Shown piece after piece: positions 3,489 to 24,000 of a stretch of 24,000 nucleotides of DNA. Below the pieces are notes generated by a model that saw only the letters and a list, made by a program, of their open reading frames with translations, was not told where the DNA came from and ran no database searches. Position 1 is the stretch's first letter. Each line of letters begins with the position of its first letter. The DNA is from Treponema sp. (GTDB lineage: Bacteria > Spirochaetota > Spirochaetia > Treponematales > Breznakiellaceae), in contig WQXI01000016.1 in assembly GCA_009784935.1 (NCBI GenBank), positions 442 to 24,441 of the forward strand, read 5' to 3'. Both the position numbers and the translations under genes were made by a program.

Positions 3489-4601
3489 TTAACAGATAGT
3501 TCCGCCGCCGATTACAATATCCCCGTCGTACATTACAACTGCCTGCCCCGGCGTGATTGCGCGCTGGGGTGTATCAAATTCAATGTTAAGATTATTTTCT
3601 CCTGTCTGTTCTGCAGAAGCCCATTGTTCAGCTTGAAGATAGCGCGTTTTTACTTTTACCCGCATGGGCGTTTTTATATTGTCCAGCGCAATTATATTGA
3701 TGTTTTTTGCAGAAAGCGATTTGCTGTACAGAGCTTCATCTTCTGCAAGAGTCACAGTGTTTGCCTCAATTGACTTAGAAACAACATATATCGGAGTGTT
3801 AGCTGCAACTCCAAGCCCCCGCCTCTGGCCTGTGGTATAACGAATAAGACCTTTATGCCTGCCGATAACTTTTCCGTTTATATCGATAATATCGCCATGC
3901 GGATATTCTTTGCCTGTATATTTCTCAATAAAACTGCCGTAATCGCCGTCAGGTATAAAACAAATATCCTGACTCTCTCCCTTGGCGGCGTTTACAAGTT
4001 TTTTTTCTTCTGCAATTTTTCGCACTTGAGTCTTTGTAAGCGATCCCAGCGGGAAGCGGGCTTTTTGCAGCTGCTGCTGGCTAAGGCAGTATAATACATA
4101 GCTTTGATCTTTTTTTTCGTCTATTGCTTTTTGCAGAAGGAATCTGCCGCTTACCGGGTCTTTTGTTACCCGCGCATAATGCCCTGTAACAAAAAAATCG
4201 TAATCTATTTTTTTTAATTGCAGATGGATAGGGTTAAATTTAATATTACGATTGCATTCTATGCATGGGTTTGGAGTTGCTCCGCTTTCGTATGTTCTGA
4301 CAAAATGACGTATGACATGTTCGTCAAATTCTTTTGTAAGATCGAGGGTTAAATGTTCTATGCCAAGATTAAGAGCAGCTGTCTTTGCGTCATTTATATC
4401 CTGCAAAGAAGAGCAGCCAGTTTCTTCGCTGCGGAGTTTAAGAGTTAAGCCTGTACATTCTAAACCCTGCTCAATGCTCAAGGCAGCCGCAACAGTGCTG
4501 TCAACGCCGCCGGACATTGCGCACACTGTGCGGGCGCACACTGTGCGGGCGCACACTGTGCGGGCGCATACTGTGCGAGCGCACACTGCACTACTTAACA
4601 A
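3489..4601 (-). CDS. mnmA: tRNA 2-thiouridine(34) synthase MnmA
   Basis: PP-loop CAMSGGVDSTVAA, catalytic-cysteine block NPCIECNR, and QSYVLY, DICF, TGQRRGLG blocks as in MnmA. The start is uncertain. The ORF opens with TTG at 4601 and reads MLSSAV(CARTV)x4-CAMSGG. Alternative in-frame GTGs lie within the repeats and an ATG lies at 4517. Confidence 0.9.
   Translation of the reverse strand: MLSSAVCARTVCARTVCARTVCARTVCAMSGGVDSTVAAALSIEQGLECTGLTLKLRSEETGCSSLQDINDAKTAALNLGIEHLTLDLTKEFDEHVIRHFVRTYESGATPNPCIECNRNIKFNPIHLQLKKIDYDFFVTGHYARVTKDPVSGRFLLQKAIDEKKDQSYVLYCLSQQQLQKARFPLGSLTKTQVRKIAEEKKLVNAAKGESQDICFIPDGDYGSFIEKYTGKEYPHGDIIDINGKVIGRHKGLIRYTTGQRRGLGVAANTPIYVVSKSIEANTVTLAEDEALYSKSLSAKNINIIALDNIKTPMRVKVKTRYLQAEQWASAEQTGENNLNIEFDTPQRAITPGQAVVMYDGDIVIGGGTIC
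4519..4593. repeat. 15-bp tandem repeat, about 4.7 copies, each unit dyad-symmetric
   Basis: GCGCACACTGTGCGG occurs identically at 4519-4533, 4534-4548 and 4549-4563. Variants follow: GCGCATACTGTGCGA (4564-4578) and GCGCACACTGCACTA (4579-4593). The arms CGCACA/TGTGCG alternate with 1-nt and 2-nt centres. Confidence 0.95.
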
Positions 4602-6388: not shown

Positions 6389-6943
6389 TTACTCCTTTGT
6401 ATACGTAATAATAGAAAAATTTTCATAATTTACGGTGTCGGTTTTTTTCCAGCTTTCGTCTATTTTAGGAAAATAAGTATCACCGTCGTAATTTCCGGGG
6501 ATTAATGTAAGAATTATTTTATTTGCATAAGGCATTGCCTGAGTGTAGATTGATTCCCCGCCGCAGATAAATACTTTTTCGTAATTGGCACAAGATTCAA
6601 TGGCGGCATTTAAAGAAGAAAGAATAACCACAGAGGACTGCAACTGAAGTTGCTTGGAGTTACACGGAGTCTTTCGTCCGAAAGCACTATCTTCTCCGTG
6701 AAACTCTGTGTACTCCGTGGTAAAATTCTTATTTTTGGAAATAATTATATTCAATCTTCCGGGCAGAGGTTTAACAGGAAGCGAGTCCCAAGTTTTTCTG
6801 CCCATTATACACGGCCATCCAATAGTAGTCTCTTTAAAGTGCGCGAGGTTTCCTTTTATCGACCACGGCATAGCGTTATCTTTGCCGATAACCTGGTTTT
6901 CTGCCATAGCGGCAATTAAAATTATCTCTTGCTTCTTCTTCAT
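6389..6943 (-). CDS. folA: Dihydrofolate reductase carrying an in-frame repeat-element insertion
   Basis: DHFR blocks IAAMAENQVIGKDNAMPW, IMGRKTWDSLP..PLPGR.NIIIS, FICGGESIY, GDTYFP. At 184 aa it is longer than the roughly 160 aa of typical DHFRs. The extra segment TTEYTEFHGEDSAFGRKTPCNSKQLQLQSSV maps to the repeat at 6628-6720. Confidence 0.85.
   Translation of the reverse strand: MKKKQEIILIAAMAENQVIGKDNAMPWSIKGNLAHFKETTIGWPCIMGRKTWDSLPVKPLPGRLNIIISKNKNFTTEYTEFHGEDSAFGRKTPCNSKQLQLQSSVVILSSLNAAIESCANYEKVFICGGESIYTQAMPYANKIILTLIPGNYDGDTYFPKIDESWKKTDTVNYENFSIITYTKE
6615..6741. repeat. CACGGAG/CTCCGTG palindromic element, copy B (inside folA)
   Basis: The core 6628-6720 (93 bp) runs from CCACAGAGGA to CTCCGTGAAACTCTGTGTACTCCGTGG. 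It is near-identical at both ends to the intergenic copy at 13137-13214. Flank similarity (GAAGAA.. on the left, (A/T)AAATTCTTA..TTGGA on the right) extends to about 6615 and 6741. Confidence 0.8.
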
Positions 6944-6956
6944 CTAAAATCTTCCA

Positions 6957-7020
6957 TTCGTGAAAATACCGTAGGTATTAGTTCGTGCAAGTACCGAAGG
7001 TACTAATTCGTGGTAAAAAT
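6957..7020. repeat. 25-bp tandem repeat (about 2.5 units) in the thyA-folA spacer
   Basis: TTCGTG occurs at 6957, 6982 and 7007, an exact 25-bp period. Units are TTCGTG-aaaaTACCGTAGGTAttag and TTCGTG-caagTACCGAAGGTActaa. Each has a small internal hairpin (GTACC-GAA-GGTAC). The end TTCGTGGTAAAAATT resembles the CTCCGTGGTAAAATT end of the heptamer element. Confidence 0.75.
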
Positions 7021-7029
7021 TTTTAAATA

Positions 7030-7896
7030 TCATACGGCAATCTCAAACTTTATCGCAGGATGAGGATCGTAATTTTCTACGATTGTGTCGTCATAGTGCC
7101 ACTCAAATATCGATGTAAATTTTTCTGTTTTAATTCTAGGAAGCTCTTTTGGCTTTCGCGTTAGCTGCAAACTAATTGCATTAATATGATTTACATAAAT
7201 ATGCACATCACCCAAAAAGCCGATTAATCTGCCTTCGCCCAAGTTTGCTTCTTTTGCCAGCAAGTGTAAAAGACAGCCGTAACTTGCAATATTAAAAGGC
7301 AGCCCCAGCGCGACATCGACCGATCGCTGATTCCAAAGCAGGTTAAGCTTACCGTCAATAACAGTCACCTGAAAACTATAATGGCATGGAGGCAATGCCA
7401 TGCGGTGTAAGTCGCTAGGGTTCCACGCGCTGACAATCATTCGGCGGTCATCGGGATTTGTTTTTAATGTCTGTACAAGTTTTTTTAGCTGATCAACGCC
7501 GCTGCCTTCCGGCGAACTGTTATACGCAGTATATTTTGCACCAAAGTTACGCCATTGCCAGCCATATATAGGACCAAGCTCACGTTCGTTCATCATTTTT
7601 GTTTTTGTTTGTTCGTCATTACCGTACGGAACAACATCGGGGCTGCACCATTCGTCCCATATCGAATTTTTTTGTTCTTTTAGCCATTCTTTGTCGGTAT
7701 ACCCGCGGATAAAAAATTCGAGTTCTGAGCGAACCATGCGGAACGGCACTTTTTTTGTGGTTAAAAGCGGGAAACCCTCAGACATATCATGTTCAAACAT
7801 AGCGCCAGCGATGGAAAGAGCGTCTACGCCGGTACGGTTAGTTTTTCTAAAACCGGTGTCGAGTATTTTTTGTACGATATCAAGATATGCTTTCAT
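7030..7896 (-). CDS. thyA: Thymidylate synthase (ThyA type)
   Basis: 288 aa with ThyA hallmarks: active-site LPPCH, TKK.PF, WNPSD, NQRS.D, and C-terminal ..IAV. Its ATG overlaps the upstream stop as ATGA (7896..7893). Confidence 0.95.
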   Translation of the reverse strand: MKAYLDIVQKILDTGFRKTNRTGVDALSIAGAMFEHDMSEGFPLLTTKKVPFRMVRSELEFFIRGYTDKEWLKEQKNSIWDEWCSPDVVPYGNDEQTKTKMMNERELGPIYGWQWRNFGAKYTAYNSSPEGSGVDQLKKLVQTLKTNPDDRRMIVSAWNPSDLHRMALPPCHYSFQVTVIDGKLNLLWNQRSVDVALGLPFNIASYGCLLHLLAKEANLGEGRLIGFLGDVHIYVNHINAISLQLTRKPKELPRIKTEKFTSIFEWHYDDTIVENYDPHPAIKFEIAV

Positions 7897-11156: not shown

Positions 11157-11263
11157 TCACACGGAGACGCAGTGACACGGAGGACACGGAGCGAATTCTA
11201 AGGTTTTTACTTTTCCTTACCTTATTCTTTGTGATCTCCGTGCCTTTGTGCCTTTGTGTGAGG
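11157..11263. repeat. CACGGAG/CTCCGTG palindromic element, degenerate copy C (upstream of groL)
   Basis: Left arm TTCACACGGAGACGCAGTGACACGGAGGACACGGAG (11157-11192). Right arm CTCCGTGCCTTTGTGCCTTTGTGTGAG (11237-11263). Same heptamer words, imperfect inverted symmetry. Confidence 0.55.
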
Positions 11264-13020: not shown

Positions 13021-13121
13021 GCGAACTGTGTTGAAGAGCCTCACACGGGTCTTGCAGCGAAGCTTCTAGCAGGCACAGAGACACAAAGTTTTAATTTAGG
13101 TTTTAAGATTAGGAGCTGTCC

Positions 13122-13235
13122 GAGAAGAATTAGAGACCACAGAGGACACGGAGTAACACAGAGGTTTTTGTTCGAAAATCTTACGCTCTCCGTGAAACTC
13201 CGTGTACTCCGTGGTTAAATTCTTACTTATTGGAC
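13122..13235. repeat. CACGGAG/CTCCGTG palindromic element, copy A (groL-murJ spacer)
   Basis: Left arm CCACAGAGGACACGGAGTAACACAGAGG (13137-13164). Right arm CTCTCCGTGAAACTCCGTGTACTCCGTGG (13186-13214). The arms are imperfect reverse complements. Each arm has 3 heptamers spaced 9-10 bp apart. The outer inverted flank is AAGAATT..CCAC paired with GGTTAAATTCTTA. Confidence 0.85.
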
Positions 13236-13255
13236 ATCTCCTTTTTTTTGGTATG

Positions 13256-13282
13256 TTGAAAGTAACGTCATAAAAGTATACT
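13256..13282 (+). promoter_or_regulatory. Putative murJ promoter
   Basis: TTGAAA (13256-13261), 15 nt, TATACT (13277-13282), 6 nt, ATG 13289. The spacer is short. There is no Shine-Dalgarno sequence. Confidence 0.25.
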
Positions 13283-13288
13283 CTTTGA

Positions 13289-14920
13289 ATGACCATGGAA
13301 AAACAAGACGCCGTCGCTCAATCAATTAATACTCCGCAAACAGTAACGCAGACTGCGAAAACACTTGTCCGCCATGGAACTGTATTGTCTCTTTTAACGC
13401 TGATCTCCCGCGTTCTTGGTCTTCTTAGGGAAATGGTAAAAGCAAGGTTTCTTGGCACTACTGCCCTGTCCGATGCTTTTTCTGTGGCGTTCCTTTTACC
13501 CAATTTGTTCCGCCGTCTTTTTGCAGAAGGTTCTATCTCGGTTGCTTTTATTCCTACTTTTAAAGAACATTTACTGGAAGCTAATAAAGAAAAAACACGC
13601 GAGTTTTTATCATCTATGTTCACCTTTCTTACATTTTTTGTAACGCTTGCTGTTTGCGCCGGTATACTTGCCGCTCCTTTGCTTGTTCGCATTTTTGGAA
13701 TAGAAGAATTTGACGAAACAGTTTTTTTAACAAGAATAATGTTTCCGTTTCTTGGATTTATTTCGCTTGCGGCATTGTTTCAGGGTGTATTAAACAGCCT
13801 GCATATTTTTACGCCATCGGGGCTTGCGCCGATTCTGTTAAACATTGTTACCATTATCGCAGCTTATGTTTTAAGTCCTTACACCGCAAACCCAGCGCGG
13901 GCGATGGCGATTGGAATTCTAGTCGGTGGTTTTTTGGAAGCGGCGATTCAACTGCCGTTTGTATTAAAAAAAGGACAAACATTTTTTATAACAGGATTAA
14001 AACGCGCGTTTAGCAATCCCGGCGTAAAAAAAGTTTTACTGCTTATAGCTCCAACGATTATCGGAATGGCAGCTTATCAAATAAATGATTTGGTTTCTAC
14101 TGCGCTGGCAGGAAGAGCGGGCGAAGGTGTTGTATCCAGCTTGCAGTATTCTCTGCGGCTGCAGGAATTGTTTCTTGGCGTGTTTGCGGTTTCTATAGGG
14201 ACAGTGCTTCTGCCGAATCTTACCGAATACGCAAAAACTTCTCAGTGGGATATTTATAATAAACGGCTGGTTTCTTCCATTAATATTATTGCATTGATAA
14301 CGATTCCAGTTACTTTCTTTTCATTAATGGAAGGACAGAATTTAATCCGCCTTCTTTTTCAGAGTCATAGCTTTGATGAAACTTCGGTTACTCTTACTCT
14401 GGCGGCATTTACATTTCATATGCCGGGGCTTTTGTTTATCGCGCTTAACAGAATTATCGCGCCTGCATTTTATGCGCAAAGTGATACAAAATCACCGACT
14501 ATTGCGGGGATAATTTCTTTTGCCGTGAATATTACCCTTGCCGCTGTATTGGTAGGACCGTACCGGGGAGCGGGAATTGCGTTTGCGCTTACTATTGCTA
14601 GCGCGATAAATACAATTGCGCTTCTTGTTATGCTTGGCAAAAATCCCAATATTGACTTAAAAGCCGTTATAACTCCATCATTATTGTATATAATTAAAAT
14701 GGTTATTCTGTCTGCGCTTGCAATTGTTCCGTTATATTTTATTTCGCCGGTGTTACGCGAAGTTTTTACAGGACACAGCCGTATAATAACGCATGGAGCG
14801 CCGTTAATTATAAATGCTTTTATTTATTTTATTCTTGGAATAACAATGCTTGCGATTGTAAAAGATAAAAATTTATTGGGCTTGCTCGATATGATCAAAA
14901 AGAAAAAGGAAGTACAATGA
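13289..14920 (+). CDS. murJ: Lipid II flippase MurJ (MviN)
   Basis: 543 aa polytopic protein. N-terminal RVLGLLREMVKARFLGTTALSDAFSVAFLLPNLFRRLFAEGSISVAFIPTF is the conserved MurJ signature. Confidence 0.9.
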   Translation: MTMEKQDAVAQSINTPQTVTQTAKTLVRHGTVLSLLTLISRVLGLLREMVKARFLGTTALSDAFSVAFLLPNLFRRLFAEGSISVAFIPTFKEHLLEANKEKTREFLSSMFTFLTFFVTLAVCAGILAAPLLVRIFGIEEFDETVFLTRIMFPFLGFISLAALFQGVLNSLHIFTPSGLAPILLNIVTIIAAYVLSPYTANPARAMAIGILVGGFLEAAIQLPFVLKKGQTFFITGLKRAFSNPGVKKVLLLIAPTIIGMAAYQINDLVSTALAGRAGEGVVSSLQYSLRLQELFLGVFAVSIGTVLLPNLTEYAKTSQWDIYNKRLVSSINIIALITIPVTFFSLMEGQNLIRLLFQSHSFDETSVTLTLAAFTFHMPGLLFIALNRIIAPAFYAQSDTKSPTIAGIISFAVNITLAAVLVGPYRGAGIAFALTIASAINTIALLVMLGKNPNIDLKAVITPSLLYIIKMVILSALAIVPLYFISPVLREVFTGHSRIITHGAPLIINAFIYFILGITMLAIVKDKNLLGLLDMIKKKKEVQ

Positions 14921-18097: not shown

Positions 18098-20485
18098 ATG
18101 CCTAAAAAAAGGGAATTTTCCGAAGAATTAGAGAAACTTGCAGAAGCGGGCAAGACTGGCAACTTCAATATTACTCTAAATTACGAAGGTCTGACAAATG
18201 AAGAAAAACTTGATATTCTCCTGATCAACGAGGCTGTCCGCAATTTTAAAAACGCGACTGAATATGACTTGATGAAATACAAACTCACAAGCGACGCTCT
18301 TGGTATTGCGCTGTGGGATATGGATGTCGTAAGCTCAGATCCTATCAATCCTGACAATACTTTTACATGGTCAAAAGAATTCAGGCATATGCTTGGTTTT
18401 AATGATGAACGGGATTTTCCGAATGTCACGCATAGCTGGAGCGACAGGCTTCATCCAGAGGACAAGGAAATTACTCTTAATGCATTCGCCGCGCATCTTA
18501 ATGATTACTCAGGAAAAACGCCGTACGATATAGAATACCGCCTAATGCGCAAGAACGGGGAATACCGATATTATCATGCTTTTGGAACAACGCTCAGAGA
18601 TAAAAAAGGCGCTCCTCTCAGAGTAGCCGGAGCTTTAAGAGATATAAACGAAGAAAAAATATTAATTAAAGAAAGAACAGAAGCCGAAATAGCAAATCAG
18701 ACTAAATCAACTTTTCTTGCAAACATGAGCCACGAAATCCGTACTCCGATGAATGCGATTCTCGGCATTACAGATATTTTAATGATGCAAAAAGGATTGT
18801 CAGAAGAAACCGAATCCGGACTTGATCAAATTCATAATTCCTGCGATCTGCTTTTGGGCATTATAAATGACATACTTGACTTTTCCAAAATAGAAGCGGG
18901 AAAAATGGACATCATACCTGCTCAGTATATAATAGCAAGTTTAATAAATGATTCTGTGCACCTTAATATGATGCGAATGGACGGCAAACCTATCGAATTT
19001 GAACTGCAGGTAGACGAAAACCTTCCGGCAAAATTGTTCGGTGATGCGCTTCGTATAAAACAAATTTTAAACAACCTGCTGTCAAATGCGTTTAAATATA
19101 CAGAATCCGGCAAAGTTACCCTGTCTATTACAAGTGAACCAAAACCAGAATACGCATATATTGATCTTATTATAAGCGTTAGAGATACCGGCCACGGCAT
19201 GACAAGAGAACAAATGAGTACGCTGTATGAAGAATATTCCCGCTTTGATTTAAAAGCAAACACAATAGAAGGAACAGGTCTTGGACTCGCAATAACACAG
19301 CATTTGATACATTACATGAACGGCAGTATTAAGGTAGAAAGCGAACCGGGAAAGGGCTCTCTTTTTATTGTTAATCTTCCGCAAAAATTGATAGACAAAG
19401 ATGTTCTCGGAAAAGAACTGGCGGAAAATTTAAAACAATTCCGCAGAAACTTTGTTCCGCAAATGCAAAGAAGCCAGATTACACGCGACCCTATGCCGTA
19501 CGGAAGCGTATTAATAGTAGATGATGTAGAAACTAATCTTTATGTTGCCGCAGGTCTTTTAAAGCCGTATTTGCTTCAGATAGAGACTGTAACAAAAGGA
19601 CGCGATGTAATTAATAAAATAAACAGCGGCAAAGTGTATGATATTATTTTTATGGATCACATGATGCCGGAAATGGACGGAATAGAGACAACTCAAAAAA
19701 TACGGGAACTTGGTTATACGCATACAATTGTCGCGCTTACGGCAAACGCAGTTGTCGGACAAGCGGAGATGTTTTTACAGAATGGATTTGACGATTTTAT
19801 TTCTAAACCGATAGATATACGCCAGTTAAATTTTATTTTAAATAAACATATCCGCGACAGACAACCGCCTGATGTAATCGAAGCTGTCTACAAACACATG
19901 AGCGAAATCTCATCCAGCGAGTATCTTAGTCCTGTAGATTCGCTTTTGCTGGAATCATTTACAAGAGACGCAAAAAAAACAGCCGATCTTTTGGATGAGC
20001 TGTTTGATGCCCAAAAACTAGAAGAGAACGATGACGATTTAAAAAAGTTTACAGTTGCTGTTCATGGCATAAAAAGCGCATTAAAAAGCATAAACGAAAC
20101 AAAACTTTCTGAGCTGGCTTTTGTACTGGAAACTGCAGGCAGAGCGCTAGATACCGATCTTATAAAAGCGTCGGCTCCCGAGTTCTTAATCGAACTGCGC
20201 GCATTAATAAAATATCTTGAACTAAAATTAGATTCTGATAACGCTCAAAATGAGGTTTCTGCCGAGAATGAAAACATTAATGACCTGCGTAATAAACTGC
20301 AAATTTTAATAAAATTATGCGCAGATTTTGACAGGAAAGGTGTGCTAGAATTAATAGCTGGGATGAATTTTTGTTCCAAAAAAACAAGGGGAGTTCTGGA
20401 TATTATAAAGGAATTTGTTTTGCATAGCGAGTTTGAAAAAGCAGGAAATACTGCGAAAAAATATTTTGATAAAGTGCAGCTTTAG
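18098..20485 (+). CDS. Cytoplasmic hybrid sensor histidine kinase/response regulator (PAS-HisKA-HATPase-REC-HPt)
   Basis: No TM segment. PAS-like region LWDMDV..WSDRLHPEDKE..YRLMRKNGEYRYY. H-box FLANMSHEIRTPMNAI (His codon 18731-18733). N/G boxes NLLSNAFKYT, DTGHGM, GTGLGLAI. REC domain VLIVDDVETN..IIFMDHMMPEMDG (Asp codon 19655-19657)..ALTANA..KP. HPt-like VAVHGIKSA (His codon 20063-20065). Confidence 0.9.
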   Translation: MPKKREFSEELEKLAEAGKTGNFNITLNYEGLTNEEKLDILLINEAVRNFKNATEYDLMKYKLTSDALGIALWDMDVVSSDPINPDNTFTWSKEFRHMLGFNDERDFPNVTHSWSDRLHPEDKEITLNAFAAHLNDYSGKTPYDIEYRLMRKNGEYRYYHAFGTTLRDKKGAPLRVAGALRDINEEKILIKERTEAEIANQTKSTFLANMSHEIRTPMNAILGITDILMMQKGLSEETESGLDQIHNSCDLLLGIINDILDFSKIEAGKMDIIPAQYIIASLINDSVHLNMMRMDGKPIEFELQVDENLPAKLFGDALRIKQILNNLLSNAFKYTESGKVTLSITSEPKPEYAYIDLIISVRDTGHGMTREQMSTLYEEYSRFDLKANTIEGTGLGLAITQHLIHYMNGSIKVESEPGKGSLFIVNLPQKLIDKDVLGKELAENLKQFRRNFVPQMQRSQITRDPMPYGSVLIVDDVETNLYVAAGLLKPYLLQIETVTKGRDVINKINSGKVYDIIFMDHMMPEMDGIETTQKIRELGYTHTIVALTANAVVGQAEMFLQNGFDDFISKPIDIRQLNFILNKHIRDRQPPDVIEAVYKHMSEISSSEYLSPVDSLLLESFTRDAKKTADLLDELFDAQKLEENDDDLKKFTVAVHGIKSALKSINETKLSELAFVLETAGRALDTDLIKASAPEFLIELRALIKYLELKLDSDNAQNEVSAENENINDLRNKLQILIKLCADFDRKGVLELIAGMNFCSKKTRGVLDIIKEFVLHSEFEKAGNTAKKYFDKVQL

Positions 20486-20494
20486 GAGAATCAT

Positions 20495-23400
20495 ATGTTC
20501 ATTACAAAACATTTCTTTCGTTTGATATTAATTACATTATTCTTAACTCTTCCTGTTTGTTTTATGAACTGTAAAAAAACAACAGAACATCAATCTGCGG
20601 CATTTGAATCATTTATAAATATACCCGGTATAACAACGGAAGAAATTGCGGCTATTAATGAGCTAAAGAATGAATATAACAAATTTGTTTTTAGCGTGCT
20701 GCCGTCTACAACAGCATTTCTTGACAGCAGCGGTGAGATAGGAGGATTCTTTGCACTGTTCTGCGATTGGCTTACCGGTTTATTCGGCATTTCGTTTGTG
20801 CCGGAGTATGTTGAATGGAACGATTTTCTTGCCAAGCTTGCAAGTTTCGAAGTTGATTTTACAGGCGCAATGACACCAACAGAAGAACGGTTAAAAACTT
20901 ATTATATGACATCACCGATTGCAATGCAGATAATCAAATCTTACCAAATTACAGGGAGCGAATCCATAGAAAATATAACACAGAGACGCCTCCCAAGGTA
21001 TGCTTTTATTCTAGATACTTCCATAATAAATGATATAGCTGCCGCTGTTGGAAGCGATACATTCGAAACTATACTTGTAAGAAGCACTGACGAAGCATAC
21101 GAATTTTTAAAAACCGGACAAGCTGATGCTTTTCTTTACTCCGATGCTGTCGAGGTTTCCTTTGATAAATTCGGAGACGTTACTGCCAAAGATTTTTTTC
21201 CATTAATTTATAACCCTGTATCGCTTGCAACACAGAATCCAAAACTAAATCCGATAATTACTGCGGTTCAAAAAGCTCTTGATAACGGAGCGCACAGCAG
21301 CCTGACTACAATATATAATCAAGGGCATAAGGAATACCAAAGAAACAAACTGCGCAATCAGTTTACAGAAGAAGAGCGCGAATATATTAGAAACAATCCT
21401 GTTATTCCTGTCGGAGCAATTTATAGCAACTATCCTGTCAGCTTCTTTAACAATAGAGAAAATGAGTTCCAGGGGATATTCTTTGATTTACTTGACGAGA
21501 TAGAATCAATGACAGGTTTAGTTTTTAAACTTGCAAATGATCAGTACACAGAATGGGGAACAATACAGGAAATGCTAAGAAACAAAGAAGTCTTTTTTGT
21601 ATCTGATATGATCTGGACAAGAGCCCGCGAAGAATATTTTATATGGTCGGAGACTTCGATACATAATGATAGTTATGCGCTTATTTCTAAACTGGATTTT
21701 CCCAATGTTTCGACTAACGAAATCCTTAACTCAAAAATCGGCTTGACGCGGGAAACTGCCTATACTGCTATGTTCAAGCAATGGTTTCCCGGACATGAGA
21801 ACACGATAGAATATAACGGTATCGAAGAAACTTTTAATGCTATGCGCAACAATAAAGTGGACATGGTTATGACTACAGAAAGAAGGCTCATGTTTCTTAC
21901 GCATTATCAGGAACTTTCCGGATATAAAGTAAATTATGTTTTTAATCAGAGCATAAGCACAAGGTTTGGATTTAATAAAGATGGAGAAGTATTACGCTCA
22001 ATTATTGACAAGGCGCTCAATACTATTGATACAGAAGGAATCTCCAACCAATGGATGCGCAAGACTTTTGATTACCGCGCAAAGGTTTTAGAAGCGCAGC
22101 GCCCGCTGCTGTATGGGTCTTTGGTTTTGGGTGCATGCGTTATTTCTCTGCTTGTCATTTTATTTATAAGGAGCCGCTATACAGGTAAACAGCTGGAAGC
22201 TCTTGTAAAAGAAAAAACACGCGATTTAGCGGATAGTTATAATTATGCGCAAAAAGCGCGCGAAGAAGCGGAGCATGCAAACCGCGCAAAGTCTTCTTTT
22301 CTTGCAAACATGAGCCACGAAATACGCACACCGATGAACGCCATAATGGGAGTTACCGATATATTAATGCAGAACGAAAAACTTCCCAGCGAAATAGAAG
22401 ACGGACTGGAAATGATTTTTGCATCAAGCGAAATGCTTTTGGGTATTATCAATGACATATTGGATTTTTCTAAAATAGAAGCGGGCAAACTGGACATTAT
22501 TCCAGCTCCTTATCAAGTTGCCAGCATGATCAATGACGCAGTGCATTTAAACATGATGAGGATCGGAAACAGGCCTATTCAATTTGAATTAAAAATTGAT
22601 GAATCCATTCCTGCAGAACTTATAGGCGACGAACTTCGCATAAAACAAATTTTAAATAACGCTCTCTCTAATGCTTTTAAATATACAGATTCCGGCAAAG
22701 TAACAATGTCAATTTCGGCTAAATCCGACAGAGGCGGTAAAAACACAACGCTTGTTTTCTGCATTCAAGACACAGGCCATGGTATGACAAACGAACAGCT
22801 TAAAAGACTGTTTGAAGAATACTCGCGTTTTAGTGAAAACACTAAACGCACCATAGAAGGCACAGGATTAGGTTTTTCTATTATGCAGAGGCTGGTTAAT
22901 CTTATGAACGGCTCAATTAATGTAGAGAGCGAACCGGATAGAGGAACCTCAGTCACAGTCCAACTGCCGCAGATAATAGCGGAAGGCAGCGCAATGCTTG
23001 GGCAGGATATTATCGATAATTTACGGCGTTTCCAAATCAATAATATAGTACACAAAAGAAATATAAGATTTAAACGCGAACCTATGCCTTACGGCAGAGT
23101 TCTGATTGTTGATGACACAGAGACTAATCTTTTTGTCGCAGAAAGGCTTATGAGACTTTATAAACTGCAGATCGAAACTGCTGTAAACGGAAGAGAAGCC
23201 GTTGATAAAATTACAAACGGAAACACATATGATATTATCTTTATGGATCATATGATGCCGGAAATGGATGGTATAGAAGCAACTAAAAAAATTCGTGAGT
23301 GGGAAGCCGAACAGAATGCAAAAATAAAAAGCAAGAGTTTTACCGCGGATGAAAGCATGGAGTCTCCGAAGGAAACTCAAAGCAACAATGGGAAACCGCA

Positions 23401-24000
23401 CATGCGAACTCCTATTGTTGCACTAACCGCTAATGCAGTGGTAGGTCAGGCAGATGTATTTTTGAAAAACGGCTTTGACGCTTTTATATCCAAACCGCTC
23501 GATATTAACCAACTGGATATTACGCTGAATAAAATGATACGCGATAAACAACCGCCGGAAGTTATCGAAGCTGCACGCAGAGAACAAGCGGCTGAACAGG
23601 ACATACCTGCCGAACAAACAGATACAGAGCCTCTTTTATTGGAATCATTTATTAGAGACGCGCAAAAAGCAGTAACTTTATTAAAAGAACTAATTAAGGA
23701 TTCTGCCTATAAAAATAACGATAATCTGCAAAAATACATCACTTGTGTTCATGGTATGGGAAGTTCTCTATTGGCTGTAAACGAAAAAGAGCTGTCCGGT
23801 AAAGCACGAAGGCTTGAACAGGCAGGCCGTGATAAAGATTTTGATCTTATCTCCGCTTCTTCTCCGGAATTAATAAATGATTTATGCCTTTTATTAGAAA
23901 AAATCAAACCCGCGCATAAAGAAGAAACCACAGATGATAATATCGAAGAGCTCCTGAAAATTTTACCTGCTCTAATAGAAAAACTGTCTGATTATAACAG
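20495..24000 (+). CDS. BvgS/EvgS-like hybrid sensor kinase, 3' end outside the window (2x periplasmic solute-binding domain - TM - HisKA - HATPase - REC - HPt)
   Basis: Not in the supplied ORF track because no stop occurs before 24000. I translated it manually and the frame is open from ATG 20495 (AGGAGA Shine-Dalgarno at 20484-20489). Signal/anchor FRLILITLFLTLPVC. Two SBP type-3-like modules (..TPTEERLKTYYMTSPI.. and ..WTRAREEYFIWSETSI..). TM LLYGSLVLGACVISLLVILFI. H-box FLANMSHEIRTPMNAI (His codon 22316-22318). REC Asp codon 23246-23248. HPt-like CVHGMGSS (His codon 23750-23752). Confidence 0.9.
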   Translation, partial: MFITKHFFRLILITLFLTLPVCFMNCKKTTEHQSAAFESFINIPGITTEEIAAINELKNEYNKFVFSVLPSTTAFLDSSGEIGGFFALFCDWLTGLFGISFVPEYVEWNDFLAKLASFEVDFTGAMTPTEERLKTYYMTSPIAMQIIKSYQITGSESIENITQRRLPRYAFILDTSIINDIAAAVGSDTFETILVRSTDEAYEFLKTGQADAFLYSDAVEVSFDKFGDVTAKDFFPLIYNPVSLATQNPKLNPIITAVQKALDNGAHSSLTTIYNQGHKEYQRNKLRNQFTEEEREYIRNNPVIPVGAIYSNYPVSFFNNRENEFQGIFFDLLDEIESMTGLVFKLANDQYTEWGTIQEMLRNKEVFFVSDMIWTRAREEYFIWSETSIHNDSYALISKLDFPNVSTNEILNSKIGLTRETAYTAMFKQWFPGHENTIEYNGIEETFNAMRNNKVDMVMTTERRLMFLTHYQELSGYKVNYVFNQSISTRFGFNKDGEVLRSIIDKALNTIDTEGISNQWMRKTFDYRAKVLEAQRPLLYGSLVLGACVISLLVILFIRSRYTGKQLEALVKEKTRDLADSYNYAQKAREEAEHANRAKSSFLANMSHEIRTPMNAIMGVTDILMQNEKLPSEIEDGLEMIFASSEMLLGIINDILDFSKIEAGKLDIIPAPYQVASMINDAVHLNMMRIGNRPIQFELKIDESIPAELIGDELRIKQILNNALSNAFKYTDSGKVTMSISAKSDRGGKNTTLVFCIQDTGHGMTNEQLKRLFEEYSRFSENTKRTIEGTGLGFSIMQRLVNLMNGSINVESEPDRGTSVTVQLPQIIAEGSAMLGQDIIDNLRRFQINNIVHKRNIRFKREPMPYGRVLIVDDTETNLFVAERLMRLYKLQIETAVNGREAVDKITNGNTYDIIFMDHMMPEMDGIEATKKIREWEAEQNAKIKSKSFTADESMESPKETQSNNGKPHMRTPIVALTANAVVGQADVFLKNGFDAFISKPLDINQLDITLNKMIRDKQPPEVIEAARREQAAEQDIPAEQTDTEPLLLESFIRDAQKAVTLLKELIKDSAYKNNDNLQKYITCVHGMGSSLLAVNEKELSGKARRLEQAGRDKDFDLISASSPELINDLCLLLEKIKPAHKEETTDDNIEELLKILPALIEKLSDYN

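What the first reader, a model, noticed from the sequence alone, without database searches (positions are those of the whole stretch)
6615..6741. Palindromic repeat element inserted in frame inside the dihydrofolate reductase gene
Seen in the sequence:
- The folA ORF has normal DHFR N- and C-terminal blocks.
- Between ..GRLNIIIS and ..LSSLNAAIES it has about 35 residues. From memory, E. coli has about 13 there (SQPGTDDRVTWVK) and L. casei about 9.
- The surplus peptide TTEYTEFHGEDSAFGRKTPCNSKQLQLQSSV is encoded by 6628-6720. That is 93 bp, or 31 codons, with no stop codon.
- This stretch is a copy of the palindromic element found intergenically at 13137-13214. The left end (CCACAGAGGA) is the same. 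The right arm is nearly identical (CTCCGTGAAACTC[T/C]GTGTACTCCGTGG). The flank AAATTCTTA is shared.
- The intergenic copy read in the same frame gives the same TTEYTEFHGE peptide (spurious ORF 13096..13296).

Established knowledge: in-frame colonisation of ORFs by palindromic repeats is documented for Rickettsia palindromic elements.

Inference:
- A MITE/REP-like element has landed in a surface loop of an essential enzyme, roughly the betaC-betaD loop of the adenosine-binding subdomain, without breaking the frame.
- The exact boundaries are unclear because weaker similarity extends to about 6615 and 6741. That would include the VVIL strand.
Basis: partly seen in the sequence, partly recalled or inferred. 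Interest (0 to 1): 0.75.

Follow-up and report, generated by a model that had tools for sequence, protein, structure and literature searches.

The report
Palindromic mobile element inside DHFR gene
A roughly 100-base palindromic "jumping" repeat sits in frame inside the dihydrofolate reductase gene of a termite-gut Treponema. It adds about 26 floppy residues to a surface loop without disabling the enzyme, and it belongs to a widespread repeat family whose full-length members carry a small nuclease gene.

Summary

**The gene and the insert**
- folA (6389-6943, minus strand, 184 aa) carries a 93-nt palindromic element at 6628-6720; with its outer stem it spans about 6614-6734.
- The element has an intergenic sister at 13137-13214 and a degenerate third copy at 11157-11256.
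- Against E. coli and Coxiella DHFR the insert is a net gain of 26-27 residues between strands betaC and betaD.
- AlphaFold predicts an intact DHFR core and a disordered insert.
- An 82%-identical orthologue carries the same element. It differs only by in-frame indels of 9 and 15 nt, and the core evolves at dN/dS 0.09. The gene is therefore functional and the insertion is old.
- Other termite-gut Treponema DHFRs have a short loop here, or different repeat insertions at the same place.

**Wider picture**
- The same element sits in frame inside at least nine other real genes in termite-gut contigs, including MiaA, RsmG, FolC-like and RluA-like genes. Most use the same reading frame. This resembles the Rickettsia palindromic elements.
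- The arms (three CACRGAG heptads) recur across many phyla.
- Full-length relatives enclose a 123-aa GxxExxY (PD-(D/E)XK) gene between the same arms, and one internally deleted intermediate was found.

**Verdict:** a tolerated selfish MITE-like insertion, best filed as a new variant of a known kind.

The parts
6389..6943 (-). folA (dihydrofolate reductase), 184 aa. This is the host gene of the insertion.
   Evidence: ORF. Pfam DHFR_1 at E 5e-48 in two stretches. 100% identical to a protein of a 'MAG: Treponema sp.' record. Foldseek TM 0.92 to Coxiella DHFR. Core dN/dS 0.09.
6628..6720 (-). Core of the palindromic element, from CCAC to GTGG. It is 93 nt and is read in frame as about T75-V105.
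   Evidence: The termite-gut family consensus is 77-79 nt; this copy is longer by a 15-nt insertion.
6694..6720 (-). Arm at the 5' end in mRNA sense: CCACGGAGTACACAGAGTTTCACGGAG. It contains three CACRGAG heptads spaced 9-10 nt and encodes TTEYTEFHGE.
   Evidence: The same 27-mer pattern was found in 120 metagenome loci.
6670..6693 (-). Central loop of the element (AAGATAGTGCTTTCGGACGAAAGA in mRNA sense). It is related to the family loop consensus GATTTTCGTACnAAAA.
   Evidence: Alignments.
6628..6669 (-). Arm at the 3' end in mRNA sense. Its outer heptads are intact (6629-6635 and 6663-6669), but the middle heptad is interrupted.
6640..6653 (.). Mini-hairpin GCAACTGAAGTTGC. It is part of a 15-nt in-frame insertion that is absent from the sister copy and from the orthologue P0002. 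It is unique among all 246 loci fetched.
6614..6627 (-). Outer stem or flank on the 3' side in mRNA sense (GTTATTCTTTCTTCT). It encodes V-I-L-S-S, which is the predicted betaD strand. The boundary is uncertain.
   Evidence: Repeat D16. Family consensus GTGGTTAATTCTT. Strand 105-108 in the model.
6721..6734 (-). Outer stem or flank on the 5' side in mRNA sense (AAATAAGAATTTTA). It encodes ..K-N-F. The boundary is uncertain.
   Evidence: Repeats D7 and D11. Family consensus AAGAATTTTA-CCAC.
13137..13214 (.). Intergenic sister copy, a 78-nt core between the groEL stop and the MurJ-family gene start. With its outer stem it spans about 13123-13228.
   Evidence: Gene context.
11157..11256 (.). Degenerate third copy of the same heptad palindrome, in the spacer upstream of groEL.
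7030..7896 (-). thyA (thymidylate synthase), immediately upstream of folA on the same strand. The thyA-folA order is conserved in the orthologous loci.

Best explanation
**What it is**
- The segment is a gene-less, MITE-like member of a palindromic repeat family.
- Each arm of a family member consists of three CACRGAG heptads, about one helical turn apart. The arms end in TT[A/C]A-CCAC ... GTGG-T[T/G]AA.
- Full-length members of the family are about 475 nt. They carry one small gene between the same arms, encoding a 123-aa GxxExxY protein of the PD-(D/E)XK nuclease superfamily.
- The short palindromes of about 78 nt are most simply read as internal-deletion derivatives of these cassettes.

**What happened (inferred)**
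- One such copy entered the folA codons for the betaC-betaD surface loop. This happened in the common ancestor of this Treponema and the organism that carries P0002.
- In this orientation and frame the element has no stop codon. It encodes a hydrophilic peptide (TTEYTEFHGE...KTPC...SSV), so DHFR is still translated.
- About 26 extra residues form a disordered excursion far from the active site.
- The outer stem of the element seems to have taken over the coding of strand betaD (VVIL).

**Why it persists (inferred)**
- Selection has only filtered. It keeps the frame (indels of 9 and 15 nt) and the DHFR core.
- The insert is a tolerated selfish passenger, not an adaptation.
- The loop is the one permissive place in DHFR, so different lineages hold different repeat insertions there.

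**Shown versus inferred**
- Shown: homology of the copies, absence from orthologues, in-frame status, purifying selection on the core, predicted disorder, other in-gene copies, and GxxExxY genes lying between identical arms.
- Inferred: derivation of the short form by deletion, the GxxExxY nuclease as the mobility function, and neutrality of the peptide.
For: **Repeat identity and chance**
-.

**Size and position of the insert**
- 27-aa gap against E. coli FolA.
- Split alignment against Coxiella DHFR: query 7-77 and 107-175.
- AlphaFold mean pLDDT 83.6, with residues 79-102 below 50, between strands 65-68 and 105-108.
- Foldseek TM 0.92 and rmsd 1.2 A to PDB 3tqa.

**Orthologues**
- Loops range from 15 to 127 aa among the 120 homologues.
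- The empty-site orthologue P0010 has no heptads.
- P0002 (82% identical) has the same element with -9 and -15 nt indels.
- Core dS 0.89, dN 0.083, ratio 0.09.

**Different insertions in the same loop**
- P0004 has a half element, P0003 CTCTGCG-type arms, P0018 a full CGCAGAG-type palindrome and P0021 a half arm.
- P0106 has a 19-nt tandem repeat with 17 copies.
- 24 of the 120 loops carry heptad-derived peptide signatures and 18 carry tandem-repeat signatures. The same signatures give 0 hits elsewhere in these proteins.
- Parsimony on a neighbour-joining tree needs at least 23 gains or losses.

**Copies in other genes**
- The 120 metagenome loci (every sample code seen is a termite-gut code) hold 161 element occurrences, 73 of them full palindromes of mostly 75-77 nt.
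- Pfam-confirmed host genes are a Mur ligase (FolC-like), MiaA, an RluA-type synthase, RsmG, a radical SAM protein, MMPL, heptaprenyl diphosphate synthase component I, an MptE-like protein and an Opp ABC component.
- About 10 of 12 in-gene copies use the same frame as folA. All six frames are stop-free in 29-60% of copies. Binomial p = 3e-5.

**Parent cassettes**
- GxxExxY genes (TIGR04256, PF13366; E 1e-42 to 1e-45) lie exactly between the arms in L010, L030 and L046, which come from three phyla.
- The same is true in L193 and L220, whose arm is the folA-type arm.
- It is also true in all five GxxExxY loci fetched by protein rather than by arm: L120, L244, L245/246, L247 and L248/249.
- L244 comes from the same assembly sample as the window.
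- L203 holds an internally deleted GxxExxY remnant between intact arms.
Against: - No transposition or homing activity is known for GxxExxY proteins. Pfam and the 2012 survey of the superfamily list the function as unknown.
- My structure model of the GxxExxY protein was too poor to compare with known folds (pLDDT 54).
- No direct target-site duplication is visible. The flanks are inverted, not direct.
- The arms can enclose other cargo, for example a 416-aa ATPase-like ORF in L069. GxxExxY could therefore be a passenger rather than the mobility enzyme.
- The loop of the short palindromes is not obviously derived from cassette ends.
- Two observations do not fit pure neutrality.
  - Element DNA is far more conserved between the two folA copies than synonymous sites of the gene (dS 0.116 against 0.89).
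  - In-gene copies show a strong frame bias.
- The exact ends of the insertion in folA cannot be fixed, because empty-site orthologues are too diverged.
- Enzyme activity was not tested. The canonical catalytic Asp is Asn in this whole clade.
Confidence: 0.75

Rival explanations
1. Exapted insertion. The element is kept in folA because it does something useful. As an RNA hairpin in the thyA-folA message it could act as an RNase III or ribosome-pausing site that tunes DHFR level. As a peptide it could add a regulatory or interaction loop to DHFR.
For: - Element nucleotides are much more conserved than synonymous sites of the host gene: dS 0.116 against 0.89, with 8 substitutions in 87 aligned nt.
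- The mRNA-sense strand folds at -42 kcal/mol, z = -4.9.
- About 10 of 12 in-gene copies share one frame and one peptide.
- The insertion has survived a synonymous divergence of about 0.9.
Against: - The two folA copies have each lost part of a different arm through indels, so the full hairpin is not maintained.
- Most close orthologues do without any insert, or carry unrelated repeats in the loop.
- The peptide is predicted to be disordered.
- The arms show no covariation. They are simply invariant in sequence across copies, as expected for a young or protein-recognised repeat.
- The low dS rests on only 29 codons. Later recombination could also produce it.
Confidence: 0.15
2. The segment is a native, lineage-specific DHFR loop, and the intergenic copies are fragments of folA.
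For: None beyond the shared sequence itself.
Against: - The same arm occurs in more than 230 loci fetched from other genomes and metagenomes. Most copies are intergenic and in organisms with unrelated neighbouring genes.
- The similarity ends at the element and does not extend into folA.
- Many orthologues have a 15-20 aa loop.
Confidence: 0.02
3. Assembly artefact. A metagenome assembler joined two folA halves through a repeat, or collapsed a repeat into the gene.
For: The window comes from a metagenome-assembled contig, and repeats are classic sites of misassembly.
Against: - Both halves are in frame, belong to one DHFR, and sit in a conserved order: NUDIX gene, thyA, folA, an unannotated gene of about 305 aa, a VCA0040-like gene. 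Parts of that order recur in independent assemblies.
- An independent assembly from another sample (JGI 3300010049) has the same element at the same codon with its own differences.
- Nine other genes in independent contigs show the same kind of insertion.
Confidence: 0.02
4. Site-specific targeting rather than a selection filter. The element, or its nuclease, recognises a sequence in this part of folA, or prefers to land in a resident copy. On this view the loop is hit repeatedly, not merely tolerant.
For: - Different element variants, in both orientations, occupy the same loop in different lineages.
- Nesting is seen elsewhere. In L245 a GxxExxY cassette sits inside another palindrome, L062 is nested, and L027 holds tandem arrays.
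Against: - In-gene copies in other proteins share no host sequence with folA.
- No signature of the repeat occurs anywhere else in DHFR, which is what a tolerance filter predicts.
- This rival is compatible with the main explanation and mainly changes why the loop is a hot spot.
Confidence: 0.3

Closest known systems
Rickettsia palindromic elements (RPEs; Ogata et al. 2000, as summarised in PMC10969869)
   Same: - Palindromic repeats of about 100-150 bp are found both between genes and inside unrelated housekeeping genes.
- They are inserted in frame, each family gives a conserved peptide, and the insertions sit at positions compatible with the protein fold.
- All of this is seen here in folA and in at least nine other genes.
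   Different: - The host phylum is different: Spirochaetota from termite guts.
- The sequence appears unrelated. It is built of CACRGAG heptads, though I made no direct comparison with RPE sequences.
- The family spans many phyla.
- It has gene-bearing relatives that carry a PD-(D/E)XK protein. I know of no such partner for RPEs; that rests on my own knowledge.
Bacterial MITEs such as Correia/NEMIS and ERIC, together with their parent insertion sequences
   Same: - Short and non-coding, with terminal inverted repeats.
- Many dispersed copies.
- Longer relatives have the same ends and carry a gene.
- A deletion intermediate exists (L203).
- Occasional in-frame intragenic copies are known.
   Different: - No target-site duplication was detected.
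- The putative parent is only about 475 nt. It encodes a 123-aa PD-(D/E)XK-fold protein, not a DDE, serine or tyrosine transposase.
- Mobility of that parent is unproven.
REP/REPIN elements and their RAYT transposases (definitions from PMC3733652)
   Same: - Abundant imperfect palindromes, mostly extragenic and often downstream of genes.
- Occasional copies lie inside genes.
- The system is hypothesised to be mobilised by a small dedicated protein whose own gene is flanked by the repeats.
   Different: - There is no unpaired GTAG or CGTC tag; the ends are TT[A/C]A-CCAC.
- The arms are three phased heptads rather than a 20-40 bp stem.
- No recurrent neighbouring gene was found other than GxxExxY, and no Y1 transposase turned up. 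I made no dedicated search for one.
GxxExxY protein family (NCBIfam TIGR04256; Pfam PDDEXK_3, PF13366)
   Same: The gene found between heptad arms matches these models at E 1e-42 to 1e-45. The 2012 survey of the superfamily notes multiple horizontal transfers between divisions, which fits a mobile cassette.
   Different: The copy in folA carries no gene. Only its arms tie it to these cassettes. The family's function is listed as unknown, and I found no paper that links it to flanking repeats.

Membership tests
In-frame palindromic elements of the RPE kind (behaviour, not sequence family) | A dispersed palindromic repeat with several copies in the genome or community. | tested here: met
   The window holds 3 copies.
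In-frame palindromic elements of the RPE kind (behaviour, not sequence family) | A copy inside a protein-coding gene, in frame and without a stop codon, that is absent from orthologues. | tested here: met
   Nine further host genes are confirmed.
In-frame palindromic elements of the RPE kind (behaviour, not sequence family) | The insert lies at a surface position compatible with the protein fold. | tested here: met
   AlphaFold predicts a disordered loop between betaC and betaD with an intact core. This is a prediction only.
Rickettsia palindromic element sequence families (RPE-1 to RPE-10) | Sequence homology to an RPE consensus. | not tested
   No RPE sequences were available in the tools. 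Rfam has no match. The host and the heptad architecture make membership unlikely.
MITE | Terminal inverted repeats, small size and no coding capacity. | tested here: met
   27-nt arms and a core of 77-93 nt.
MITE | A direct target-site duplication flanking the element. | tested here: not met
   The flanks of 45 full copies are TT[A/C]A and T[T/G]AA. These are inverted, not direct. TTAA flanks are ambiguous.
MITE | A longer autonomous relative with the same ends that encodes the mobility enzyme. | tested here: inconclusive
   Cassettes with identical arms enclose a GxxExxY gene, and one deletion intermediate exists. It has not been shown that this protein moves the element.
REP / REPIN-RAYT | An unpaired GTAG or CGTC tetranucleotide tag at one end (PMC3733652). 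| tested here: not met
   The ends are TT[A/C]A-CCAC...GTGG.
REP / REPIN-RAYT | Association with a RAYT (Y1/HUH) transposase gene flanked by the repeats. | tested here: inconclusive
   Clustering all ORFs of 114 loci found no recurrent neighbour of that kind. I made no dedicated HMM search for Y1 transposases.
GxxExxY (PDDEXK_3) heptad-armed cassettes | Inverted arms of three or more CACRGAG-type heptads ending in CCAC/GTGG. | tested here: met
   The folA arm 6694-6720 matches the 27-nt pattern exactly. The same pattern flanks GxxExxY genes in L193 and L220.
GxxExxY (PDDEXK_3) heptad-armed cassettes | A GxxExxY gene lying between the arms. | tested here: not met
   Only a 24-nt loop lies between the arms in folA. 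The copy is a gene-less derivative, not a cassette.
Dihydrofolate reductase (FolA, Pfam DHFR_1) | The DHFR fold and its sequence motifs. | tested here: met
   Pfam E 5e-48. TM 0.92 to Coxiella DHFR. 37% identity to E. coli FolA.
Dihydrofolate reductase (FolA, Pfam DHFR_1) | An active-site carboxylate (Asp27 in E. coli). | tested here: not met
   The aligned residue is Asn32, and it is invariant in all 120 closest homologues. The consequence for activity was not tested.

The most novel reading that the evidence does not exclude
The heptad-armed cassettes may be a previously undescribed class of minimal mobile element.
- They are about 475 nt long.
- Two 27-nt arms of phased CACRGAG heptads enclose a single 123-aa PD-(D/E)XK (GxxExxY) gene.
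- On this reading that protein recognises and cuts its own arms, or the hairpin or cruciform they form.
- The class has spread horizontally through Spirochaetota, Acidobacteriota, Planctomycetota, Bacteroidota, Proteobacteria, Omnitrophota, Bacillota and apparently some archaea.
- It spawns gene-less palindromes that, in termite-gut treponemes, colonise housekeeping genes in frame. Essential enzymes such as DHFR, MiaA and RsmG carry its footprints as extra surface loops.
Probability: 0.35. Interest if true: 0.8.

Novelty: new variant of a known kind. Interest (0 to 1): 0.68.

Why it matters
- In-frame colonisation of proteins by selfish palindromes is best documented in Rickettsia. Here the same behaviour appears in free-living gut spirochaetes, with a different repeat family.
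- It affects core enzymes, including drug-target DHFR, which points to a more general route of protein loop evolution.
- It shows which DHFR loop tolerates 10 to 110 extra residues in nature. That is useful for protein engineering.
- It affects annotation. Length-variable orthologues and many spurious small ORFs (TTEYTEFHGG, SVSSVV and similar) trace back to this repeat.
- The link to GxxExxY genes gives a testable function for a very large protein family of unknown function. It also offers a candidate explanation for why a 27-nt motif is conserved across phyla.

Tried and rejected
- **Rfam at gathering threshold on the window.** No match.
- **Rfam in E-value mode on eight loci from different phyla.** Apart from tRNAs, only sub-threshold matches, mostly to plant and animal microRNA hairpin models. 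These are generic hairpin hits and I rejected them.
- **Literature searches with exact element strings.** Only unrelated primer hits.
- **Literature searches for GxxExxY, PF13366 and TIGR04256.** Nothing links the family to repeats.
- **All-against-all clustering of ORFs in 114 loci, looking for a recurrent neighbouring transposase.** None was found apart from the small GxxExxY cluster.
- **Protein search with the element-encoded peptide, to find other host proteins.** Only four short spurious ORFs came back, so it was uninformative.
- **AlphaFold of the GxxExxY protein from 23 close homologues.** pLDDT was 54, too poor for a fold search.
- **RNAalifold on 49 copies.** No compensatory changes. 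The arms are invariant, so this gives no evidence for or against a structural RNA.
- **ORF-embedded candidates outside Treponema.** L039 was a false positive. L059 (PrmC) is a real half-arm in frame.
- **Strand asymmetry of G-T wobble pairs.** The three window copies do not share one orientation relative to transcription, so I dropped it.
Full report
**1. The observation**

- The window carries thyA (7030-7896) and folA (6389-6943) on the minus strand.
- folA matches Pfam DHFR_1 at E 5e-48, but the match is split into two stretches.
- The stretch 6628-6720 is an imperfect palindrome with a sister copy at 13137-13214.
  - 6656-6734 versus 13150-13228 is 80% identical over 79 nt.
  - 6614-6638 versus 13123-13147 is 80% identical over 25 nt.
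  - The 27-nt arm occurs twice in the window and never in 100 shuffles.
- Each arm is three CACRGAG heptads spaced 9-10 nt: CCACRGAG-nn-CACRGAG-nnn-CACRGAG.
- The folA copy has 15 extra nt that form a mini-hairpin at 6640-6653. That hairpin is unique among all 246 loci I fetched.
- Both copies fold as long hairpins, at -35 to -42 kcal/mol with z-scores from -4.3 to -7.2.
- A third, degenerate copy lies at about 11157-11256.
- The quoted peptide, the 93-nt length and the shared flanks are all correct.

**2. It is an insertion relative to other DHFRs**

- BLASTP against E. coli FolA opens a 27-residue gap right after NIIL.
- phmmer against Coxiella DHFR (PDB 3tq8) aligns query 7-77 and 107-175, leaving 29 query residues opposite 3.
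- The protein is 100% identical to one from a 'MAG: Treponema sp.' record on a 106,989-bp contig.
- Its 120 closest homologues range from 152 to 274 aa, and the loop where they vary most runs from 15 to 127 aa.
- Short-loop orthologues such as P0010 have no heptads in the loop DNA.

**3. The gene is alive and the insertion is old**

- P0002 is 82% identical and comes from a different assembly. Its sample code belongs to a higher-termite gut study.
- It has the same element at the same place and differs by indels of 9 nt and 15 nt, both in frame.
- Outside the loop, dS = 0.89, dN = 0.083 and the ratio is 0.09.
- AlphaFold gives mean pLDDT 83.6, with residues 79-102 below 50. They lie between strand 65-68 (betaC) and strand 105-108 (betaD).
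- The model superposes on Coxiella DHFR at TM 0.92 and rmsd 1.2 A.
- The outer stem of the element seems to encode K-N-F before the arm and V-V-I-L, the predicted betaD strand, after it. The exact ends therefore cannot be set.

**4. The loop holds different repeats in different lineages**

- P0004 holds a half element and P0003 holds arms of a CTCTGCG variant.
- P0018 holds a full CGCAGAG-type palindrome and P0021 holds a single arm.
- One clade carries a 19-nt tandem repeat, GGACGAGCTCTGTCCCCAA. P0106 has 17 copies.
- Because 19 is not a multiple of 3, that repeat is read in all three frames (SSVP, ELCPQ, ALSP).
- Conservative peptide signatures mark 24 of the 120 loops as heptad-derived and 18 as tandem-derived. 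The same signatures give no hit anywhere else in these proteins.
- On a neighbour-joining tree of the core, at least 23 gains or losses are needed. This is a rough estimate, because the protein is short.

**5. The behaviour is general in termite-gut treponemes**

Every sample code seen is a termite-gut code.
- These loci hold 161 occurrences, 73 of them full palindromes of mostly 75-77 nt.
- The consensus is conserved along its whole length, loop included.
- Fifteen occurrences lie in frames that stay open for at least 60 codons on both sides.
- Pfam confirmed real host genes for nine of the ten tested:
  - The Pfam domain match spans or is split by the element in four: a FolC-like Mur ligase, MiaA, an RluA-type pseudouridine synthase and RsmG.
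  - The element lies at a domain edge or between domain matches in three: a radical SAM protein, an MMPL transporter and an Opp permease-ATPase fusion.
  - It lies after the matched domain in two: heptaprenyl diphosphate synthase component I and an MptE-like protein.
- About 10 of 12 in-gene copies use the same frame as folA (TTEYTEFHGG...KTPCSSVSSV). All six frames are stop-free in 29-60% of copies. Binomial p = 3e-5.
- This is the pattern described for Rickettsia palindromic elements.

**6. What the element is**

These came from:
  - Acidobacteriota, Planctomycetota, Bacteroidota and several proteobacterial classes;
  - Omnitrophota, Gemmatimonadota, Bacillota, Synergistota and Verrucomicrobiota;
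  - termite Treponema MAGs;
  - two archaeal MAG lineages, for which contamination of the MAGs is not excluded.
- Most of these copies are complete palindromes ending in TT[A/C]A-CCAC...GTGG-T[T/G]AA. There is no direct duplication.
- Rfam has no family for the element, and exact-string literature searches found nothing.
- Most left-right arm pairs are 3-120 nt apart, but a small class is 390-442 nt apart.
- In that class the space is filled by a gene for a GxxExxY protein (TIGR04256; Pfam PDDEXK_3, PF13366), with E 1e-42 to 1e-45. This holds in three phyla.
- The same is true for the folA-type arm in termite-gut contigs L193 and L220. L203 holds an internally deleted GxxExxY between intact arms.
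- All five GxxExxY loci fetched by protein rather than by arm also have heptad arms on both sides.
  - These are L120, L244, L245/246, L247 and L248/249.
  - L244 comes from the same assembly sample as the window.
  - In L245 a cassette is nested inside another palindrome.
- More than 120 distinct close homologues of the Treponema-type GxxExxY protein exist, clustered at 90% identity.
- The 2012 survey of the PD-(D/E)XK superfamily lists PF13366 as function unknown, with multiple transfers between divisions.
- Other cargo also occurs between arms: a 416-aa ATPase-like ORF in L069.

**7. How it most likely works**

- *Shown:* a dispersed palindromic repeat sits in frame in a surface loop of a DHFR that remains under purifying selection. 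It does the same in other genes. Identical arms flank a small nuclease-fold gene elsewhere.
- *Inferred:*
  - The short form arose from the cassette by internal deletion.
  - The GxxExxY protein, or a host factor, recognises the heptads. That would explain why the arms are conserved in sequence without covariation.
  - Insertions into genes survive only where the frame is open and the peptide is harmless.
- *Not explained by pure neutrality:* element DNA in folA is far more conserved than synonymous sites (dS 0.116 against 0.89, on only 29 codons), and in-gene copies show a frame bias. I therefore keep an exaptation rival at about 0.15 and a targeting rival that is compatible with the main explanation.

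**8. Comparison with known systems, and verdict**

- The behaviour matches RPEs and intragenic MITEs.
- Membership of the REP/RAYT superfamilies fails on the defining GTAG or CGTC tag.
- The MITE criterion of a target-site duplication is not met.
- Sequence membership of the RPE families was not tested.
- I rate it a new variant of a known kind. The phenomenon is known. The repeat family, its host range and the PD-(D/E)XK cassette link appear undescribed in the literature I could search.

Noticed in passing
window 6389-6943 (residue N32 of folA): The active-site carboxylate of DHFR (Asp27 in E. coli; Asp in Coxiella) is Asn here, and Asn is invariant in all 120 closest homologues. The gene still sits next to thyA and evolves under strong constraint. 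From my own knowledge, the D27N mutant of E. coli DHFR is strongly impaired at neutral pH, so this clade may use a different protonation route.
   Followed up: partly
window 4519-4588: A 15-nt palindromic tandem repeat, GCGCACACTGTGCGG with 4.7 copies, lies inside the 5' end of the mnmA-like ORF (3489-4601, minus strand). It is read in frame as (ARTVC)n directly before the PP-loop motif AMSGGVDS.
   Followed up: partly
L121 3216-3543 (folA orthologue P0106); also P0024, P0099, P0100, P0104, P0112 and P0120: A 19-nt tandem repeat, GGACGAGCTCTGTCCCCAA with up to 17 copies, fills the same DHFR loop. It is translated in all three frames (SSVP, ELCPQ, ALSP). Several loop lengths differ by about 19 aa, which is three repeat units. 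Slippage by one unit would shift the frame, so this could act as an on-off switch in folA.
   Followed up: partly
window 11157-11256: A degenerate third copy of the heptad palindrome lies in the spacer upstream of groEL.
   Followed up: partly
window 6956-7012: A 25-nt direct repeat, ATTCGTGAAAATACCGAAGGTACTA with 2.3 copies, fills most of the thyA-folA spacer.
   Followed up: no
L245 about 690-1290 (identical in L246): Nested elements: a GxxExxY cassette with its own arms lies inside the loop of another heptad palindrome. In L248 and L249 one arm is interrupted by a mini-hairpin, GGCTGTCCC-TGAC-GGGACAGC. This recalls the mini-hairpin in the folA copy.
   Followed up: partly
L069 44-1805: In an Acetomicrobium MAG, heptad arms 1.7 kb apart enclose a 416-aa ORF with a P-loop ATPase motif (GGPRQVGKTT) on the opposite strand. 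Arms can therefore flank cargo other than GxxExxY.
   Followed up: no
L059 7340-7400: In an Acidobacteriaceae MAG, a single heptad arm is read in frame (NHRGHGEAQRE) inside a PrmC methyltransferase, between the PrmC_N domain and the methyltransferase domain.
   Followed up: partly
L239 3-1424: An element copy joins the end of an Opp-type permease domain to an ABC ATPase domain in one open frame. It may be fusing two adjacent genes.
   Followed up: no
L055, L100 (Methanosarcinales UBA203 MAG) and L089 (Ca. Ethanoperedens MAG): Complete heptad palindromes occur on contigs binned as archaeal. This is either cross-domain spread or contamination of the bins.
   Followed up: no
L027 3299-3627: Four tandem copies of a roughly 100-nt unit, each beginning with the heptad arm, in a termite Treponema MAG.
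   Followed up: no
window 18679-19982 versus 22264-23672: Two stretches about 3.6 kb apart are 71-79% identical over several hundred nt. This suggests tandem paralogous genes (repeats D1-D3, D6 and D9).
   Followed up: no
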